A DNA stretch of 50,918 bases from Patescibacteria group bacterium (GCA_028694925.1 JAQVJW010000003.1:1-50918), one strand, 5' to 3'; positions 13,026-38,186 are shown, counted from the first letter of the stretch. Notes: generated by a model not told the origin, from the sequence alone. Program-made: numbers and translations.

Positions 13026-13580
13026 ATGGTAATAAAGAAGCTACCCCAAATTGGGGACCCAATATTAAGGAAAAGGGCAAAGAACTTAACTTTTAGAGAC
13101 CTTCGTGATCCTCGGACCAAGAGAATAATCAAAGACCTTATAGATACGATGCGTGAACGAGGTCTGGTGGGTATCGCGGCACCACAGCTTGGTGAAAGTG
13201 TTCGAATTTTTGTTGTTGAGGTTAGGCCCACCAAAGTAAGGAAGCTGGAACTAGAGCCTTTAAGAATATTTATTAATCCTCGTATAAATTGGAAATCAAA
13301 ACAAACCGTTGTGGATTACGAGGGTTGTGGCAGTGTTCTTAATGGGAAGATCTTTGGACCCGTTAGAAGGCACAAAAGTATTGTAATTGAATATGATGAT
13401 ATTGAGGGAGGTCGTCATAAATTAAAAGCAACTGGCAATCTTTCTATCATTGTTCAACATGAGTATGATCACCTTAATGGCATTCTCTTTACTGATAAAT
13501 TGACCGACAACAAGAAAATATTAGATTATGATCATTATCTTAAGATGCGTAAGGATTACCATAAATCTCAAAGAAAATAA
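13026..13580 (+). CDS. def: Peptide deformylase
   Basis: GLVGIAAPQLG, EGCGS, QHEYDHLNG. Confidence 0.95.
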   Translation: MVIKKLPQIGDPILRKRAKNLTFRDLRDPRTKRIIKDLIDTMRERGLVGIAAPQLGESVRIFVVEVRPTKVRKLELEPLRIFINPRINWKSKQTVVDYEGCGSVLNGKIFGPVRRHKSIVIEYDDIEGGRHKLKATGNLSIIVQHEYDHLNGILFTDKLTDNKKILDYDHYLKMRKDYHKSQRK

Positions 13581-13587
13581 GGACTTA

Positions 13588-13613
13588 AAAACCACTCGTT
13601 AGAGTGGGGTTTG
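13588..13613 (-). terminator. Intrinsic terminator for the minus-strand insert (may also end def)
   Basis: minus strand ccactc-taac-gagtgg-ttttt. Confidence 0.6.
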
Positions 13614-13650
13614 ATAGAGAGCGGGGCCCCCGGCAACGCCGGGAGCCCCG

Positions 13651-14067
13651 TCAAGTAGAGCCAAAGCCACTACTGGTGCAACACCCTTGCATCTGGATGG
13701 CGCCCGAGCGTACTCGGACGACTTCGCATTTCCCTGCGCAGGGCGGGCGTCTGCCCGAGTTTGGCGCAAGAGCTACTTTTTTCACTCTCGGCCTGGGTCC
13801 CTTGACCCATAATCCCTTGGCCGATTGGCCTACCAATCGCCCGAAGGCAAATGGTTTCTTGAGCGATGCCCCTCTGGCATCGGGATTTCTGAGACTTCTA
13901 GGCCTCGGAGTTCTCACTCCACCTCTGTTCGGCGAGGAGCCGGACCACTCAAGGTCTAGGTTTGGGAACGGAGGATTGCTATGGTAGCCGTTTCTCCAGA
14001 ATTCCCCGTCACTCGAGGCGGAACGATACCCTCTCTCGAGGGACGAATCCGCTATACTCATCTTCAC
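13651..14067 (-). CDS. Possible 138-aa orphan, P/G/R/S-rich with C-terminal Cys residues; may be non-coding
   Basis: open frame ending just before the 13622-13650 hairpin; weak SD, composition typical of GC-rich chance ORFs. Confidence 0.25.
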   Translation of the reverse strand: MKMSIADSSLERGYRSASSDGEFWRNGYHSNPPFPNLDLEWSGSSPNRGGVRTPRPRSLRNPDARGASLKKPFAFGRLVGQSAKGLWVKGPRPRVKKVALAPNSGRRPPCAGKCEVVRVRSGAIQMQGCCTSSGFGST

Positions 14068-14103
14068 CGCAGTGTCCCATTAAGGACAGTGCGGGCGAAA
14101 CCG

Positions 14104-14235
14104 TCAAGCGAACCCCGCCGGATAGCCGCATGGACAGCGCTTGAGTCGGAACCCCGCCCAGCGCGGACGCCCGTCAGGCGTCGTAGTCGTCGCTATCGGC
14201 GGTCCGATACTCGGTGCTTCCGGAAACAGCATCAC
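14104..14235 (-). CDS. Possible 43-aa peptide (MMLFPEAPSIGPP...KRCPCGYPAGFA)
   Basis: SD GGGGAGGTGA upstream of GTG-ATG. Confidence 0.35.
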   Translation of the reverse strand: MMLFPEAPSIGPPIATTTTPDGRPRWAGFRLKRCPCGYPAGFA

Positions 14236-14420
14236 CGCGTTTCACCTCCCCCTGGTAGTTCGCCAAAAAAAGGTGCTGCTGGGGCTTTACCCGTCTCTTT
14301 CTACGGGCCTAGCCCCTGCGCCGGCTGACCGTCGTGGTCAGCTAGCGAGCTCGCCGTCGATCGCGACGATCGCGACGACGTCGATGATCATCGTGTGCGG
14401 ATGCGGAGTTTTGGTAGGCA

Positions 14421-14456
14421 CTAGCCTGTCGACCTCTTCACACCCATAGCGACCAT
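14421..14456 (-). CDS. Possible 11-aa leader peptide MVAMGVKRSTG
   Basis: strong SD GGAGGAAGGAG directly upstream; first start codon after the promoter. Confidence 0.35.
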   Translation of the reverse strand: MVAMGVKRSTG

Positions 14457-14526
14457 CTTCTCCTTCCTCCCCGAAGGGAACTGCGCCACCTGCACCTTGC
14501 CGGCAGGTAGCTAATGAAGAATAAAA

Positions 14527-14555
14527 AAAAGATAGCACAAACATAAGAACTTGTC
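14527..14555 (-). promoter_or_regulatory. sigma70 promoter driving the minus-strand insert
   Basis: minus strand TTGACA-agttcttatgtttgtgc (17 nt)-TATCTT. Confidence 0.7.
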
Positions 14556-14578
14556 AAATGTTTTGTGCAATTTGATGG

Positions 14579-14607
14579 TTGCCGAGTTAGAGGATTTTTG
14601 CTAAGAT
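14579..14607 (+). promoter_or_regulatory. trxA-tig promoter (extended -10)
   Basis: TTGCCG, 17 nt, TGc-TAAGAT. Confidence 0.6.
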
Positions 14608-14641
14608 AGCAAGGCATTAAAGATAATTATTGGGAGGAATT

Positions 14642-14956
14642 GTGAGCGTAGTAACCTTAAATGATTCAAATTTTAAGTCCGAAGTAGAAGAGGCTACCGG
14701 GGTAGTAGTCATTGATTTCTATGCTGATTGGTGTGGCCCTTGTAAGATGATGGCCCCAATCTTTGAAGAGACTGCTGGGGAAGTTAAGGATGCGAAGTTT
14801 GGGAAGCTTAATGTAGATGAGGCTCGAGAAACAGCAATGCGTTTTAATGTGATGAGTATCCCAACCTTAATTGTCTTTAAGGACGGTAAGGTGGTAAACC
14901 AGGTTGCGGGGGTTCAGGATAAAGAAGCACTTAAGCGAATGGTTTCGGAGGCTTAG
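14642..14956 (+). CDS. trxA: Thioredoxin
   Basis: WCGPC, MSIPTL; GTG start at 14642 behind SD GGAGG (track start 14630 is too early). Confidence 0.96.
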   Translation: MSVVTLNDSNFKSEVEEATGVVVIDFYADWCGPCKMMAPIFEETAGEVKDAKFGKLNVDEARETAMRFNVMSIPTLIVFKDGKVVNQVAGVQDKEALKRMVSEA

Positions 14957-27475: not shown

Positions 27476-27504
27476 TTGTGGATAAATAAATTACGCGATA
27501 TAAT
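27476..27504 (+). promoter_or_regulatory. Promoter of micro-ORF operon; -35 overlaps a DnaA box (27477-27485)
   Basis: TTGTGG, 17 nt, TATAAT (27499-27504). Confidence 0.6.
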
Positions 27505-27579
27505 ACGCCTACTAACGGTAATGGGTGTTTGGGGTAAGCCGCGCACCTTAACTTGCAAGTTCGGAAAGGGCTGGTGCAC

Positions 27580-27774
27580 ATGAGGAAAGCGTATCAGCTC
27601 CTTCTCTACGCGTCGTATCAGAGCGCCATATTCCTGGCCGTACTCTTCATAAGCCCAAAAGCTGCAAGACGGTTTTTGGGGATTTGGATCGCAACATTCG
27701 TTGGGTATCTTGCTTGTGACATGGGGCCCAAAGACCAGGAAGAGGGTGACCGAGATGCCAGAATGGGCAGTTGA
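27580..27774 (+). CDS. Orphan 64-aa membrane microprotein
   Basis: ATG 27580, two hydrophobic segments then acidic tail; overlaps next ORF. Confidence 0.5.
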   Translation: MRKAYQLLLYASYQSAIFLAVLFISPKAARRFLGIWIATFVGYLACDMGPKDQEEGDRDARMGS

Positions 27775-27928
27775 ATTCCTAACAAGCGAGTACGGGATCC
27801 CAGTTACCCTTGTGGTAACTGCTTTCGTGCTCGTTGGGGTATCGAGGGTGGCCATCCTGTTCATCAGGCCATTCTTCGGGCCTGCACCGAGGACGGGGAA
27901 CATGCCAGAGAACAAATCGAGAAAGTAA
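27755..27928 (+). CDS. Orphan 57-aa single-TM microprotein (MPEWAVEF...)
   Basis: SD GAGGGT then ATG 27755; TM IPVTLVVTAFVLVGVSRVAILFI. Confidence 0.6.
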   Translation: MPEWAVEFLTSEYGIPVTLVVTAFVLVGVSRVAILFIRPFFGPAPRTGNMPENKSRK

Positions 27929-27942
27929 CGGAGGGCGAACCC

Positions 27943-27984
27943 ATGAAGTATGTCAGCGTCGAACGAGAGGGGGTGTCGGCATGA
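27943..27984 (+). CDS. 13-aa peptide MKYVSVEREGVSA
   Basis: SD GGAGG then ATG; stop overlaps the next start (ATGA). Confidence 0.45.
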   Translation: MKYVSVEREGVSA

Positions 27985-28151
27985 CGGCATCTATCGTATC
28001 TTCACTAATCGCAGTAACAGGAGGCGACGGGCTCGGTATTGTGTTCATCTTCTTCGGGTTGCTCCTCACCACATCGTCAGTGGTGCTTGGGGTCTGGGCG
28101 CTTGTGGAACGTTGGTATGACAGGCCCCTAATAGACCCTGGCCCGCAGTAG
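27981..28151 (+). CDS. Orphan 56-aa single-TM microprotein
   Basis: ATGA coupling, SD GAGGGGGTG, TM LGIVFIFFGLLLTTSSVVLGVWALV. Confidence 0.6.
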   Translation: MTASIVSSLIAVTGGDGLGIVFIFFGLLLTTSSVVLGVWALVERWYDRPLIDPGPQ

Positions 28152-28164
28152 AAGGGGGTTTGAA

Positions 28165-28566
28165 GTGACAACGGAGGCGAGGCGCTACCTTGCTGTTCCA
28201 GTACGCATTCTCACGGTGCTGCTTGCTCTTGTGGCGAGTATCGTGGGTTTGCTGAACGGTCTTGGGCGGCTCCTCATAATCTTGGGGTGCTTCTTCTTCG
28301 AAGTCTGGCCGTACTGGATTAGGCAGTCGCTCGAGTATCGTCGAGCGCAACGTCAGGTGAGGCTTGAAGCGAAGCTTGCGACGCTATGTGAGAGCTGTAC
28401 CACGAGGGTAGACAACGACTACATCGGTAGTACACTGACGATCGAGTGCACTTGTCGCAAGTTACAAGCTCTCAAGGCCAGAATTGATCGGATCGATCAC
28501 AACCTGACACTATCTCCGGCATTGCCGGACGAAATGGCTCAGGCTGCGAGCCCAGGCGGGTTCTGA
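28165..28566 (+). CDS. Orphan 133-aa protein: N-terminal TM hairpin plus CxxC...CxC putative metal site
   Basis: GTG after AGGGG; CESC and CTC motifs. Confidence 0.6.
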   Translation: MTTEARRYLAVPVRILTVLLALVASIVGLLNGLGRLLIILGCFFFEVWPYWIRQSLEYRRAQRQVRLEAKLATLCESCTTRVDNDYIGSTLTIECTCRKLQALKARIDRIDHNLTLSPALPDEMAQAASPGGF

Positions 28567-28580
28567 GGGAGGAAGGAGCC

Positions 28581-28757
28581 ATGTATCAATCAGCTCATTC
28601 GACGAAGCCATCCCAGGCAGCCCACTTCGTTGCGTGCATCATCTGCATCGCAGAGGCGCTCAGGGAAGTGGTAGCCCGAGGCATCGACTGGGCGATTCCG
28701 AAGGAGGAAATGCCCGAGGAGCCGGAGGCGTTCGAGCCGAACCCACTCGCTTTGTAG
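28581..28757 (+). CDS. Orphan 58-aa protein (MYQSAHS...CIIC...acidic tail), not in ORF track
   Basis: very strong SD GGAGGAAGGAG then ATG 28581, TAG 28755-28757. Confidence 0.6.
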   Translation: MYQSAHSTKPSQAAHFVACIICIAEALREVVARGIDWAIPKEEMPEEPEAFEPNPLAL

Positions 28758-28817
28758 AGGTCCTCTGAACTTGCTTACCGAAAGGAGGCACACGGGAACA
28801 TGGAGGTTCTCAAGTGT

Positions 28818-28863
28818 CCTTGACGGGCCCGGATCGCAGTTGCGTGACGGGCCCGAAGGCTTT
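28818..28863 (+). terminator. GC hairpin built from two direct copies of TGACGGGCCCG (self-complementary core)
   Basis: copies at 28821-28831 and 28845-28855, flanked by cctt/aagg, followed by cttt. Confidence 0.45.
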
Positions 28864-28875
28864 ATGACAAAAGTC

Positions 28876-28904
28876 TTGCAAACTAGGGAAAAGTTAGGTA
28901 GAAT
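28876..28904 (+). promoter_or_regulatory. tuf promoter; DnaA box downstream at 28943-28951
   Basis: TTGCAA, 17 nt, TAGAAT. Confidence 0.75.
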
Positions 28905-37030: not shown

Positions 37031-37522
37031 ATGGAAGTAATAGCTAAAGGAAAATACATCAGGATTTCACCCAAGAAGGCAAGGCCGATTGCCGACCTTC
37101 TACGTGGTAAAAATGCTCGGGAGGCCCGCGTGATGCTCGAGGCTATGCCCCAAAAAGGCGCGAAACTGATTGGGAAGGTTCTTGCGAGTGCGATGGCAAA
37201 CGCCGAGAATAATTTTAGTCTCGAGAAGGATCAGCTCACTATTAAGGGAGTTACCATCGATGGCGGCCCAGTTCTTAAGCGCTATATGCCAAGAGCCCAA
37301 GGTCGAGCCTCAGAGATCAGAAAGCGAACTTCCCATATTGAGATCGTAGTCGCAGGTGACGTAAAGACAAAGAAAGAGAAAAAGCAAACAGAAATTAAGG
37401 CCAAGGAAGCTAAAGAAGACCAAAAGGTAGAAAGCAGGCCAGAAGTTGCAGGAAATGAAAAGTTAAACCCTAAAGAGAGTATCGGAAAAGGACCAAAAAT
37501 ATTTAGGAGAAAGACGGGTTAG
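37031..37522 (+). CDS. rplV: 50S ribosomal protein L22 with C-terminal extension
   Basis: ISPKKAR, ANAENN, PRAQGRA, KRTSHI. Confidence 0.98.
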   Translation: MEVIAKGKYIRISPKKARPIADLLRGKNAREARVMLEAMPQKGAKLIGKVLASAMANAENNFSLEKDQLTIKGVTIDGGPVLKRYMPRAQGRASEIRKRTSHIEIVVAGDVKTKKEKKQTEIKAKEAKEDQKVESRPEVAGNEKLNPKESIGKGPKIFRRKTG

Positions 37523-37523
37523 C

Positions 37524-38186
37524 ATGGGACAAAAAGTAAATCCAAACAGTTTTAGACTTCAGGTAACCAAGGATTGGAAATCGCGATGGTTTGCAGGCAA
37601 GTCTGATTATGCGAAACTTTTGCATGAAGATATTAAGATTCGTGACTATATCCTTACTAATTTAGGCCCTCGGGCTGGAATATCCAGAGTCGATATTGAA
37701 CGGGATGCGAACCTTGTTAATGTTATTATTCACACTTCCCGCCCCGGGGTTGTTATCGGGCGAGGTGGAGCCGGAGCAGTTGAGCTTAAGAATAAGCTTA
37801 CAAGCCTAGTTGAATCAAAGATTAAGGATATCTCGATCGAAGAGATCAGAAAGCCGGAACTTGATGCTAAGATTATGGCCGATAGCATCAAGGAACAGCT
37901 CGAAAAAAGGATTGCCTTTAAGAGAGCGGCAAAGCAAGCACTCGATAAGATTAAAAGAGCCGGAGCGGAAGGTGTTAAAGTGATGATTGCCGGTCGTTTG
38001 AACGGGGCCGATATCGCAAGGACACAGTTCTTCCAAGAAGGGAAGATCCCAATGTCCACTTTACGCGCCGACGTTGACTATGGTTTTTCAGAAGCGTGGA
38101 CAACCTACGGAATCCTAGGGATCAAGGTTTGGATTTATCGGGGAGAAAGAAAAAAGGAAGAGGAAAAGAAAAATGTTAATGCCTAA
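37524..38186 (+). CDS. rpsC: 30S ribosomal protein S3
   Basis: [35 protein letters not shown]. Confidence 0.99.

What the first reader, a model, noticed from the sequence alone, without database searches (positions are those of the whole stretch)
13620..14520. Candidate ~900-nt novel structured RNA antisense between def and trxA
It is bounded by a TTGACA-17-TATCTT promoter and a U-tailed terminator on the minus strand, and is nearly wall-to-wall stem-loops. Plus-strand coordinates: 13622-13650 (13 bp), 13677-13691, 13701-13720 (UACG loop), 13732-13743, 13744-13757, 13794-13809, 13822-13839, 13839-13848 (UUCG), 13864-13882, closing helix 13811-13816/13882-13887 forming a multibranch junction, 13891-13906, 13907-13920 (GAGA), 14018-14052 (GAGA-capped), 14067-14094, 14166-14182, 14194-14209, 14324-14342, 14351-14384 and 14470-14481 (UUCG). 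Three stem mismatches (13628/13644, 13703/13718, 13894/13903) are A-C on plus but G-U on minus, matching the promoter strand. ORFs in it are weak. I found no RNase P, tmRNA, group I or hammerhead core, so it may be a new large ncRNA in the size class of GOLLD/ROOL/OLE.
Basis: partly seen in the sequence, partly recalled or inferred. Interest (0 to 1): 0.8.

Follow-up and report, generated by a model that had tools for sequence, protein, structure and literature searches.

The report
Structured RNA gene hiding small protein
The GC-rich, heavily folded ~930-base unit between def and trxA in this ultra-small (CPR-type) bacterium is real and belongs to a tiny, uncatalogued RNA family, but its conserved middle encodes a 43-residue protein, so it is a structured small-protein or dual-function RNA and not a purely non-coding giant RNA.

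Summary
Window 13590-14530 is a 60% GC, ORF-poor island in a 42.7% GC, 665-kb genome. A minus-strand promoter (TTGACA-17-TGnTATCTT) and a U-tailed terminator bracket it. It folds far better than shuffles (z -10.3 minus, -7.9 plus) and matches no Rfam family.

Four related lineages, all metagenome contigs, carry a homologous transcript at the same place and on the same strand. Their 5' ~340 nt share covarying helices (consensus-fold z -7.7).

The centre of the window RNA is a 43-codon ORF (14235-14104, minus). Its GTG start lies 6 nt after a perfect Shine-Dalgarno (SD) sequence, GGAGGUGA. The closest relative keeps this ORF at identical length: 17/44 residues are identical, against 4-6 in the other frames and at most 16 in 5000 column shuffles. 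Similarity stops at the stop codon.

My best reading (0.5) is a strongly structured small-protein or dual-function RNA with a sequestered SD and start, and a fast-evolving, hyper-stable 3' tail. It is not GOLLD, ROOL, OLE, RNase P or tmRNA. No transcript data could be obtained.

The parts
14529..14557 (-). Sigma-70-type promoter of the unit: -35 TTGACA (14557-14552), 17-nt spacer, TG-extended -10 TATCTT (14534-14529). The transcription start near 14522 is inferred.
   Evidence: 10/12 match, TG present. Homologous promoters sit at the same place in L163 (TTGAAA-17-TATCAT, 13/17 spacer bases identical), L206 (TTGACA-17-TATCCT) and L207 (TTGACC-17-TATCTT), read.
14485..14511 (-). P1 hairpin, 9 bp, with the conserved 9-nt loop CGGCAAGGU (14502-14494).
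   Evidence: Pair probability 0.99. In window/L206/L207 all pairs are kept and 5-6 positions covary. CM-based count: 87% of cells paired, against 38-56% when the partner is slid.
14467..14480 (-). P2 hairpin UUCCC-UUCG-GGGAG.
   Evidence: CG/GC and CG/UG changes among the three lineages.
14457..14472 (-). First purine run, GGGGAGGAAGGAGAAG (SD-like). It is predicted to pair with the pyrimidine run 13613-13620 near the 3' end.
   Evidence: Helices 65-72/911-918. Equivalent 5'-purine/3'-pyrimidine pairings appear in the separately folded L206 and L165 transcripts. The block is conserved in all four lineages.
14421..14456 (-). Possible micro-ORF (AUG...UAG, MVAMGVKRSTG). It contains the conserved block UGAAGAGG (14440-14433).
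   Evidence: Read. All four lineages have NUG-AAG-ARR followed by an in-frame UAG 6-9 codons later. SD spacing is inconsistent, so translation is unproven.
14281..14316 (-). Conserved stacked hairpin (GGGGCU/AGCCCC enclosing GCCCGU/ACGGGU).
   Evidence: Pair probability 0.97-0.99. It is kept in L206 with several double changes.
14242..14249 (-). Second SD, GGAGGUGA, inside the invariant block GGGGAGG(U)GAA. It is predicted to be base-paired.
   Evidence: The block is present in all four lineages. P(unpaired) is 0.01-0.17 for AGGUGA. The helix GGUG/CACC shows U-A, C-G, G-C and U-A across the four lineages.
14104..14235 (-). Small ORF of 43 codons plus stop, with a GTG start 6 nt after the SD: (M)MLFPEAPSIGPPIATTTTPDGRPRWAGFRLKRCPCGYPAGFA.
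   Evidence: Listed. L165:1077-1208 holds an ORF of identical length, VCIIPEAP...RCPCGYPSGEA (tblastn E 1.7e-7). 17/44 residues are identical, against 4 and 6 in the other frames, with 0/5000 column shuffles reaching 17. Differences by codon position are 18/19/34. Identity falls to 16/60 right after the stop.
13621..14103 (-). Lineage-specific, hyper-structured GC-rich 3' tail. It includes the three-way junction 13811-13887 with a UUCG-capped arm, next to a GAGA-capped hairpin (13907-13920), and the 13-bp hairpin 13622-13650.
   Evidence: structure. The 500-nt 3' half has z -6.0. No homologue by BLAST or by covariance models R1/R2. The 138-aa ORF inside it has no relative among 1.84 billion representative proteins and no Pfam match.
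13587..13607 (-). Intrinsic terminator CCACUC-UAAC-GAGUGG followed by UUUUU, 7 nt after the def stop codon.
   Evidence: pair probability 0.99. L206, L165 and L163 also end in a hairpin plus a U run next to def.

Best explanation
The island is one minus-strand gene for a ~930-nt, very stable, highly folded RNA with both a structural and a coding part.

A strong promoter that is conserved by descent starts transcription near 14522. The first ~290 nt form a conserved structured leader: P1 with an invariant loop, P2, purine-rich blocks, and several hairpins kept by compensatory changes. Next comes a perfect Shine-Dalgarno sequence and a 43-codon ORF for a fast-evolving, non-hydrophobic small protein. 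Its conserved ends are PEAP and RCPCGYPxGxA.

In the predicted fold both the SD and the GTG start are base-paired. The CACCG that encodes Ala-Pro of PEAP can pair either with the GGUG of the SD or with the CGGUG that holds the start codon. The 5' purine run pairs with a pyrimidine run near the 3' end. Translation is therefore probably gated by RNA structure. This step is inferred.

The last ~500 nt are a GC-rich, hairpin-dense tail that differs completely between lineages. It most likely acts as a stabilising or scaffolding 3' domain. This step is also inferred.

Two related lineages keep the structured RNA but only a 6- or 13-codon remnant of the ORF. The RNA part therefore probably has a function of its own, which makes this a dual-function RNA.
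For: Shown:
- Unit boundaries and strand.
- Exceptional folding, well above the same genome's RNase P RNA and tmRNA.
- The insert sits between genes that are adjacent in relatives. The def-trxA gap is 78 nt in L168 and about 100 nt in G004.
- An independent assembly (L162) reproduces the locus at 100% identity.
- Homologous transcripts lie at the same site in L206/L164, L207/L208 and L165.
- Covariance model R3, built from three lineages, scores 68-90 bits on its own members (these match by construction, since R3 was built from them) and at most 26 bits elsewhere.
- The anchored four-sequence alignment gives a consensus fold of -13.55 kcal/mol, against -1.62+-1.56 for column shuffles (z -7.7, 0/300).
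- P1, P2, the 14281-14316 hairpin and the SD helix all show compensatory changes.
- ORF conservation: identical length, same start and stop positions, 17/44 identical residues against 4/43 and 6/43 in the other frames, 0/5000 shuffles as high, a third-position excess of 18/19/34, and homology that ends at the stop codon.
- SD and start are paired in the ensemble.
Against:
- The ORF is supported by only two lineages and has no relative in protein databases or in 400 genomes of the phylum.
- L206 and L207 lack an intact ORF, so the protein may be dispensable or recent.
- The peptide is low in complexity (rich in P, G and T).
- The structure of the 3' tail is purely predicted.
- The tail's GC content (about 60%) is far above that of the organism's housekeeping RNAs (45-47%). 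This could instead point to foreign DNA.
- The gating mechanism is inferred from minimum-free-energy and ensemble folds only.
Confidence: 0.5

Rival explanations
1. It is a purely non-coding large structured RNA. The 43-codon frame is then a by-product of constraints on RNA sequence and structure, and the molecule acts as a scaffold, RNP core or self-assembling RNA.
For: The 5' core with covarying helices is kept in L206 and L207, where the ORF is reduced to 13 and 6 codons. About 85% of the transcript is non-coding. z is -10.3. The stable UUCG (x2), UACG and GAGA loops all read on the minus strand. The ORF's conserved blocks overlap predicted helices.
Against: Frame-specific amino-acid conservation is significant (17 against 4-6; 0/5000 shuffles). 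The ORFs have identical length with start and stop at the same positions. The SD is perfect and at ideal spacing. Similarity ends exactly at the stop codon. The consensus fold of window and L165 over this block is weak (z -0.9 to -2.2), and model R2 does not find L165.
Confidence: 0.25
2. It is a piece of horizontally acquired or mobile GC-rich DNA, such as the remnant of a small-gene cassette. It happens to be transcribed from an older promoter and has no function of its own as a whole; its hairpins reflect its origin.
For: GC content is about 60%, against 45-47% for the genome's own stable RNAs. The 3' tail is unrelated between lineages, and transcript length varies from about 150 nt (L163) to about 650 nt (L206) to about 930 nt. 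The same genome has other GC-rich islands. One is a 1.9-kb promoter-to-terminator unit on C29 with small SD-preceded ORFs. Relatives carry a GC-rich 308-310-aa ORF inserted nearby.
Against: No repeats, target duplications or mobility genes are present. There is no match in phage, plasmid or viral collections. The element is single copy. The 5' core, promoter, terminator position and ORF are conserved across lineages whose def proteins are only 72-75% identical. GC content shows no codon periodicity typical of high-GC coding DNA.
Confidence: 0.12
3. It is a cis-acting antisense or transcriptional-interference element. The strong minus-strand transcript converges on def, which lacks a good plus-strand terminator, and controls def read-through or insulates def from the trxA-tig-clpP operon.
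For: The geometry is convergent. The only terminator-like hairpin after def carries its U run on the minus strand.
Against: The minus-strand terminator stops the RNA 7 nt short of def. This reading explains neither the conserved 5' core nor the ORF. Relatives without def at this site still keep the trxA promoter region.
Confidence: 0.05

Closest known systems
Dual-function (coding plus regulatory) bacterial RNAs, for example Staphylococcus aureus RNAIII/hld, and SgrS/SgrT or SR1/SR1P (from established knowledge).
   Same: It is a stand-alone, strongly promoted, terminator-ended, multi-hairpin RNA of several hundred nt. It embeds a short ORF (here 43 codons) whose SD is occluded by structure. 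RNA parts outside the ORF are conserved.
   Different: There is no sequence or Rfam relation. It is about twice the size of RNAIII. No target-pairing function is known. The 3' domain is not conserved between lineages. It occurs only in a small clade of Patescibacteria.
Type I toxin mRNAs with fold-back inhibition (hok/sok-like) (from established knowledge).
   Same: It has predicted long-range 5'-3' end pairing, a sequestered SD, a small ORF, a possible upstream leader micro-ORF, and a very stable structured mRNA.
   Different: The peptide is not hydrophobic (GRAVY -0.10, no membrane-spanning segment). No antisense promoter was found inside the island. The RNA is 2-3 times longer than hok-type mRNAs.
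Large ornate bacterial ncRNAs: OLE (RF01071), GOLLD (RF01998), ROOL (RF03087). Cryo-EM structures are reported in PMC12286853.
   Same: It shares their size class, GC-rich island appearance in an AT-rich genome, density of helices and unknown function. It would be found by the same 'long GC-rich intergenic region' logic (PMC8723152, PMC11109978).
   Different: No covariance-model match even at E<=10. It contains a conserved ORF. Only the 5' third is conserved, in four lineages. There is no evidence of conserved tertiary motifs or of oligomerisation.

Membership tests
GOLLD / ROOL / OLE / other Rfam large ncRNAs | Match to the family covariance model (sequence plus structure). | tested here: not met
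   cmscan over the whole window at gathering level finds only a tRNA. Over 13400-14750 at E<=10 it finds only a chance miRNA hit at 17 bits.
RNase P RNA / tmRNA | The element is the genome's copy of these housekeeping RNAs. | tested here: not met
   RNase P RNA is at C25:52748-53112 (208 bits) and tmRNA at C25:72313-72699.
Structured ncRNA family (generic criterion) | Homologues keep helices through compensatory base changes. | tested here: met
   This holds for the 5' ~340 nt only. P1 has 9 bp with 0 broken and 5-6 covarying positions. The SD helix shows U-A/C-G/G-C/U-A. The alignment fold has z -7.7. The tool count gives 87% paired against 38-56% when slid. Only 3-4 lineages are available.
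Structured ncRNA family (generic criterion) | No conserved reading frame. | tested here: not met
   The 43-codon frame is conserved between the window and L165.
Dual-function RNA (operational class) | A small ORF under coding selection inside an RNA whose non-coding parts are also conserved. | tested here: met
   ORF statistics and 5' core covariation. The RNA is retained with only a truncated ORF in L206 and L207.
Dual-function RNA (operational class) | A demonstrated regulatory or other RNA-level activity, and a translated product. | not testable with these tools
Type I toxin-antitoxin mRNA | A small hydrophobic membrane-active peptide. | tested here: not met
   GRAVY is -0.10 (window) and -0.11 (L165). 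The peptides are rich in Pro, Gly and Thr, and no hydrophobic stretch is visible in them.
Type I toxin-antitoxin mRNA | A cis- or trans-encoded antisense antitoxin RNA. | tested here: inconclusive
   No plus-strand promoter-like site lies inside the island. def read-through could supply an antisense RNA, but this is untested.
Riboswitch / leader / attenuator | Lies upstream of, and on the same strand as, a regulated gene. | tested here: not met
   The next gene downstream on the minus strand is def, in convergent orientation, and a terminator lies between them. The only same-strand ORF is the internal 43-codon one.

The most novel reading that the evidence does not exclude
The unit may found a CPR-specific class of large modular RNAs. 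In this reading a conserved 5' 'adaptor' carries a hyper-stable GC-rich 3' domain that can be exchanged. The adaptor comprises the promoter, P1 with its invariant loop, the purine blocks, and the SD gate with an optional small protein. The 3' domain would have its own RNA-level function, such as a scaffold, an RNA-only assembly, or a decoy for host or phage nucleases. Lineages would swap or regrow this tail quickly, as in an arms race. The other GC-rich, strongly folding promoter-to-terminator units in the same genome (C29, C23) would be further members of the phenomenon.
Probability: 0.15. Interest if true: 0.75.

Novelty: new variant of a known kind. Interest (0 to 1): 0.5.

Why it matters
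Candidate-phyla-radiation bacteria have tiny genomes and almost no described regulatory RNAs or small proteins. This locus devotes nearly 1 kb (0.14% of the genome) and a near-consensus promoter to an RNA more strongly folded than the cell's RNase P RNA or tmRNA.

The unit combines a covariation-supported RNA core with a small ORF that gene callers miss. That matters in two ways:
- It adds an uncatalogued RNA family and a new small protein to CPR biology.
- It is a caution for 'GC-rich island = giant ncRNA' screens, because part of the conservation here is coding.

The rapidly replaced, hyper-stable 3' tail is unexplained. If it is functional, it would point to a new kind of modular RNA.

Tried and rejected
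**Known families.** Rfam at gathering and permissive thresholds gave nothing. RNase P RNA and tmRNA were ruled out because they lie elsewhere in the genome.

**Homologue searches with the whole island or its 3' domains.**
- BLAST of the 941 nt against the own genome, 60 relatives and the whole order (28 genomes) found only itself.
- Phages gave only 47-nt GC-rich chance hits in Gordonia phages; plasmids gave nothing.
- Exact 22-28-mers in JGI metagenomes, GTDB genome contigs and IMG/VR gave 0 matches.
- The single-sequence covariance models R1 (13794-13920) and R2 (14046-14202) found nothing in 400 genomes of the phylum (R1 only) or in the relatives' loci.

**Searches with the conserved 5' module.**
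- The pattern TGCCGGCAAKGTGCA-N16-24-GGAGGA gave 23 and 24 hits. All are chance: they score only over the pattern itself.
- Model R3 over 400 genomes of the phylum scored at most 25.8, 24.2 and 20.8 bits. Two of the top four hits lie inside 366-368-aa ORFs, and the hits examined (top four) have no GC-rich body or promoter. I rejected them as members.

**Coding tests on other ORFs.**
- The 138-aa minus ORF and five other ORFs have no credible Pfam match. The 138-aa ORF has no relative among 1.84 billion proteins.
- GC content shows no codon periodicity.

**Small-protein searches.** The word-based search and a six-frame search of 400 genomes gave noise only.

**L163.** Its 150-nt transcript shares the promoter but no detectable body similarity.

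Full report
**1. The observation**

Window 13590-14530 is a sharp GC-rich island. Its 200-nt windows are 0.56-0.63 GC, against about 0.42 in the flanks. The genome is 665 kb and 42.7% GC, in 32 contigs.

The island lies between def (13026-13580, +) and trxA (14630-14956, +). trxA is followed by tig and clpP.

The three A-C/G-U positions make the minus-strand versions more stable. In the full-length minus-strand fold most helices have pair probabilities of 0.9-1.0. This includes the three-way junction closed by 13811-13816/13882-13887.

The minus strand carries the best promoter-like site of the region: TTGACA-17-TATCTT with an extended -10 TG, scoring 10/12. It also carries a hairpin plus U5 terminator at 13607-13592.

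Folding energies:
- Minus strand: -446.9 kcal/mol, against -371.1+-7.3 for dinucleotide shuffles (z -10.3).
- Plus strand: -408.4 (z -7.9).
- Threading the minus structure onto plus costs 49.6 kcal/mol; the reverse costs only 15.

For scale, the same genome's RNase P RNA has z -3.8 and its tmRNA has z -4.4. Both are only 45-47% GC.

Rfam 15 gives nothing. RNase P RNA and tmRNA are encoded elsewhere.

**2. The island is real genomic sequence**

An independently assembled 2-kb Logan contig (L162) is 100% identical across def-island-trxA.

In relatives def and trxA are neighbours. The gap is 78 nt in L168 and about 100 nt in G004. The island is therefore an insertion into a conserved gene order and not a chimeric join.

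It is single copy. It has no internal or flanking repeats. It has no match in phage, plasmid, viral, JGI metagenome or GTDB collections.

**3. Finding relatives**

BLAST and two single-sequence covariance models from the 3' two-thirds (R1, R2) found nothing (R1 in 400 genomes of the phylum; both in the relatives' loci).

Relatives came instead from walking out from the neighbouring proteins:
- L165 (def 75% identical) has a GC-rich stretch of at least 470 nt after def. It ends in a minus-strand terminator.
- L206, from the same sample as L164 (def 72%), has a promoter TTGACA-17-TATCCT upstream of trxA on the minus strand. A GC-rich transcript of about 650 nt and a terminator follow.
- L207/L208 have TTGACC-17-TATCTT and at least 560 nt.
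- L163 keeps the homologous promoter (13 of 17 spacer bases identical) but only an unrelated transcript of about 150 nt.
- Other relatives have AT-rich gaps containing a tRNA (L170, L174) or a similar short gap (L256) and no such RNA.

**4. A conserved, covarying 5' core**

Window, L206, L207 and, where its contig allows, L165 share collinear blocks:
- P1, whose loop is CGGCAAGGU / CGGCAAUGU / CGAAAGGU.
- P2.
- A purine run, GGGGAGGAAGGAGAAG.
- UGAAGAG.
- GAUGAUCA.
- CACGACGG.
- An invariant GGGGAGG(U)GAA.

P1 keeps all its pairs in three lineages, with 5-6 covarying positions. A hairpin at 14281-14316 and the helix GGUG/CACC next to the invariant block also change on both sides. The latter shows U-A, C-G, G-C and U-A in the four lineages.

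The block-anchored four-sequence alignment has a consensus folding energy of -13.55. Alignments whose columns were shuffled within conservation classes give -1.62+-1.56, so z is -7.7 and 0 of 300 shuffles reach it.

On a model-derived alignment of P1/P2, 87% of cells pair, against 38-56% with slid partners. The covariation score is 0.49 against 0.05-0.13. One base-pair register shift in the window copy lowers these numbers.

Model R3, built from three lineages, scores 68-90 bits on those same lineages (by construction) and at most 26 bits in 400 genomes of the phylum. The top outside hits sit inside long ORFs or lack any island. The family is real but, as far as these collections show, confined to a handful of metagenomic lineages.

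**5. The centre is a small gene**

Window and L165 are collinear without indels over more than 200 nt: 87/200 matches, against at most 83 in 200 shuffles. Yet their common fold over that stretch is weak (z -0.9 to -2.2).

The explanation is a reading frame. Six nucleotides after GGAGGUGA, a GTG opens a 43-codon ORF at 14235-14104: (M)MLFPEAPSIGPPIATTTTPDGRPRWAGFRLKRCPCGYPAGFA. GGAGGUGA is the exact complement of the canonical anti-SD core at the 16S rRNA 3' end.

L165 has an ORF of exactly the same length five nucleotides after the same motif: (M)CIIPEAPTFFVRLDTTARIVELIQPTDDPRDRCPCGYPSGEA.

The evidence for coding selection:
- In frame, 17 of 44 positions are identical. The other two frames give 4 and 6.
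- Column shuffles of the same alignment give 8.8+-2.1, with a maximum of 16 in 5000.
- Nucleotide differences fall 18/19/34 on codon positions 1/2/3.
- 11 of the 17 conserved residues use different codons.
- Identity drops to 16/60, the chance level, immediately after the shared TGA.

This is coding selection. The protein is not hydrophobic (GRAVY -0.1). It has no relative in the word-indexed protein collection or in six-frame searches of 400 genomes.

In L206 and L207 the same SD block is followed by only 13 and 6 codons. The RNA therefore outlives the ORF.

A second, tiny frame may exist in the leader: NUG-AAG-ARR, then 3-7 codons, then UAG. It is present in all four lineages, but SD spacing is inconsistent. 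I leave it open.

**6. The tail**

From the stop codon to the terminator (14103-13608) the window has about 500 nt of dense helices. They include two C(UUCG)G loops, a UACG loop, GAGA loops, the three-way junction and a 13-bp hairpin. The 500-nt 3' half has z -6.0.

Nothing similar exists in L165 (about 160 nt there), in L206 or anywhere else searched. Its longest ORF (138 aa) has no Pfam match and no relative among 1.84 billion representative proteins. GC content shows no codon periodicity.

The tail's structure therefore rests on thermodynamics and strand asymmetry alone.

**7. How it probably works**

Shown: one promoter, one terminator, a conserved structured leader, and a conserved SD plus ORF.

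Inferred: translation is gated by structure.
- In the ensemble the SD (P(unpaired) 0.01-0.17) and the GTG (0.04-0.05) are paired.
- CACCG, within the PEAP codons, can pair with either the GGUG of the SD or the CGGUG that contains the start.
- The 5' purine run pairs with a pyrimidine run just before the terminator in the window, L206 and L165 folds.

This resembles the fold-back architecture of stable small-ORF mRNAs and dual-function RNAs.

The tail may stabilise the RNA or have its own role. Its rapid turnover, and a GC content far above that of the cell's housekeeping RNAs, are unexplained. They keep a foreign-DNA origin possible.

**8. Comparison and verdict**

It is not a member of GOLLD, ROOL, OLE, RNase P or tmRNA. 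It is not a leader of a downstream gene, because the next gene is convergent. It is not a typical type I toxin mRNA, because the peptide is not hydrophobic.

It works most like a dual-function RNA of the RNAIII type, but it is larger, unrelated in sequence and CPR-specific.

The 'pure giant ncRNA' reading is only partly supported.

My probabilities:
- Structured small-protein or dual-function RNA: 0.5
- Pure ncRNA: 0.25
- Functionless foreign remnant: 0.12
- Antisense or interference element: 0.05

Noticed in passing
own genome C29:~145-2120 (locus L184), minus strand: This is a second and larger GC-rich unit (about 0.56-0.58 GC). It has a promoter TTGACT-17-TATATT with an extended -10 and a 15-bp terminator at 186-149. 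Pieces fold with z -11.6 and -6.3. Unlike the finding, it visibly contains several small SD-preceded ORFs, some of them membrane-like. It has no Rfam or Pfam match.
   Followed up: partly
own genome C23:4180-4620 (L182) and C23:37660-38000 (L183): These are two more GC-rich (0.58-0.61), ORF-poor islands that fold strongly (z -6.9 and -7.3/-7.5). The second follows two odd tRNAs. ARAGORN calls one with anticodon UUA ('Stop') at 37463-37557 and one undetermined at 37588-37661. Rfam finds only the tRNAs.
   Followed up: partly
window 27500-28900: This is a GC-rich (0.55-0.56) stretch between fusA and tuf with no frame longer than about 143 codons. It folds only mildly (z -1.3 to -2.7). That fits the other first-stage note of an array of microproteins better than a structured RNA.
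   Followed up: partly
L203 (G003:C1) 1420-2352 and L204 (G002:C30), same family: Relatives carry a GC-rich (0.5-0.6) 308-310-aa ORF without any Pfam match, inserted between recG and the rsmD-like gene. In the window these two genes are adjacent. GC-rich insertions therefore recur in this neighbourhood across the family.
   Followed up: partly
window 14557-14619; L163, L170, L169, L168: The trxA promoter/leader (TTTTGTGCAAnTTG...GGTTG...TAAGATAGCAAGGCA) is the only part of the def-trxA gap that is conserved across all relatives. The island's -35 box abuts it, so the two promoters are back-to-back and divergent.
   Followed up: yes
window 13581-13650: def has no canonical plus-strand terminator. 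The hairpin right after its stop codon has its U run on the minus strand, with A5 before it on plus. def transcription may therefore read antisense into the island's 3' tail.
   Followed up: no
L164 end / L206 start: Both contigs from sample SRR15719361 break at the same perfect palindrome, TCGTTTGGATGCGATCGCATCCAAACGA, between def and the RNA's terminator. This shows they are adjacent, and that such hairpins fragment assemblies at this locus.
   Followed up: partly
L261 (G009:C49:11774-11873), same order: This is the best same-order hit of model R3 (20.8 bits). It has the exact P1 loop CGGCAAGGU, a purine run AGAGGAGAAGGAGAG and GGAAGAGAG. However, the GC-rich part is only about 100 nt long and overlaps a 79-codon frame on the other strand. 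It may be chance or a distant, reduced relative.
   Followed up: partly
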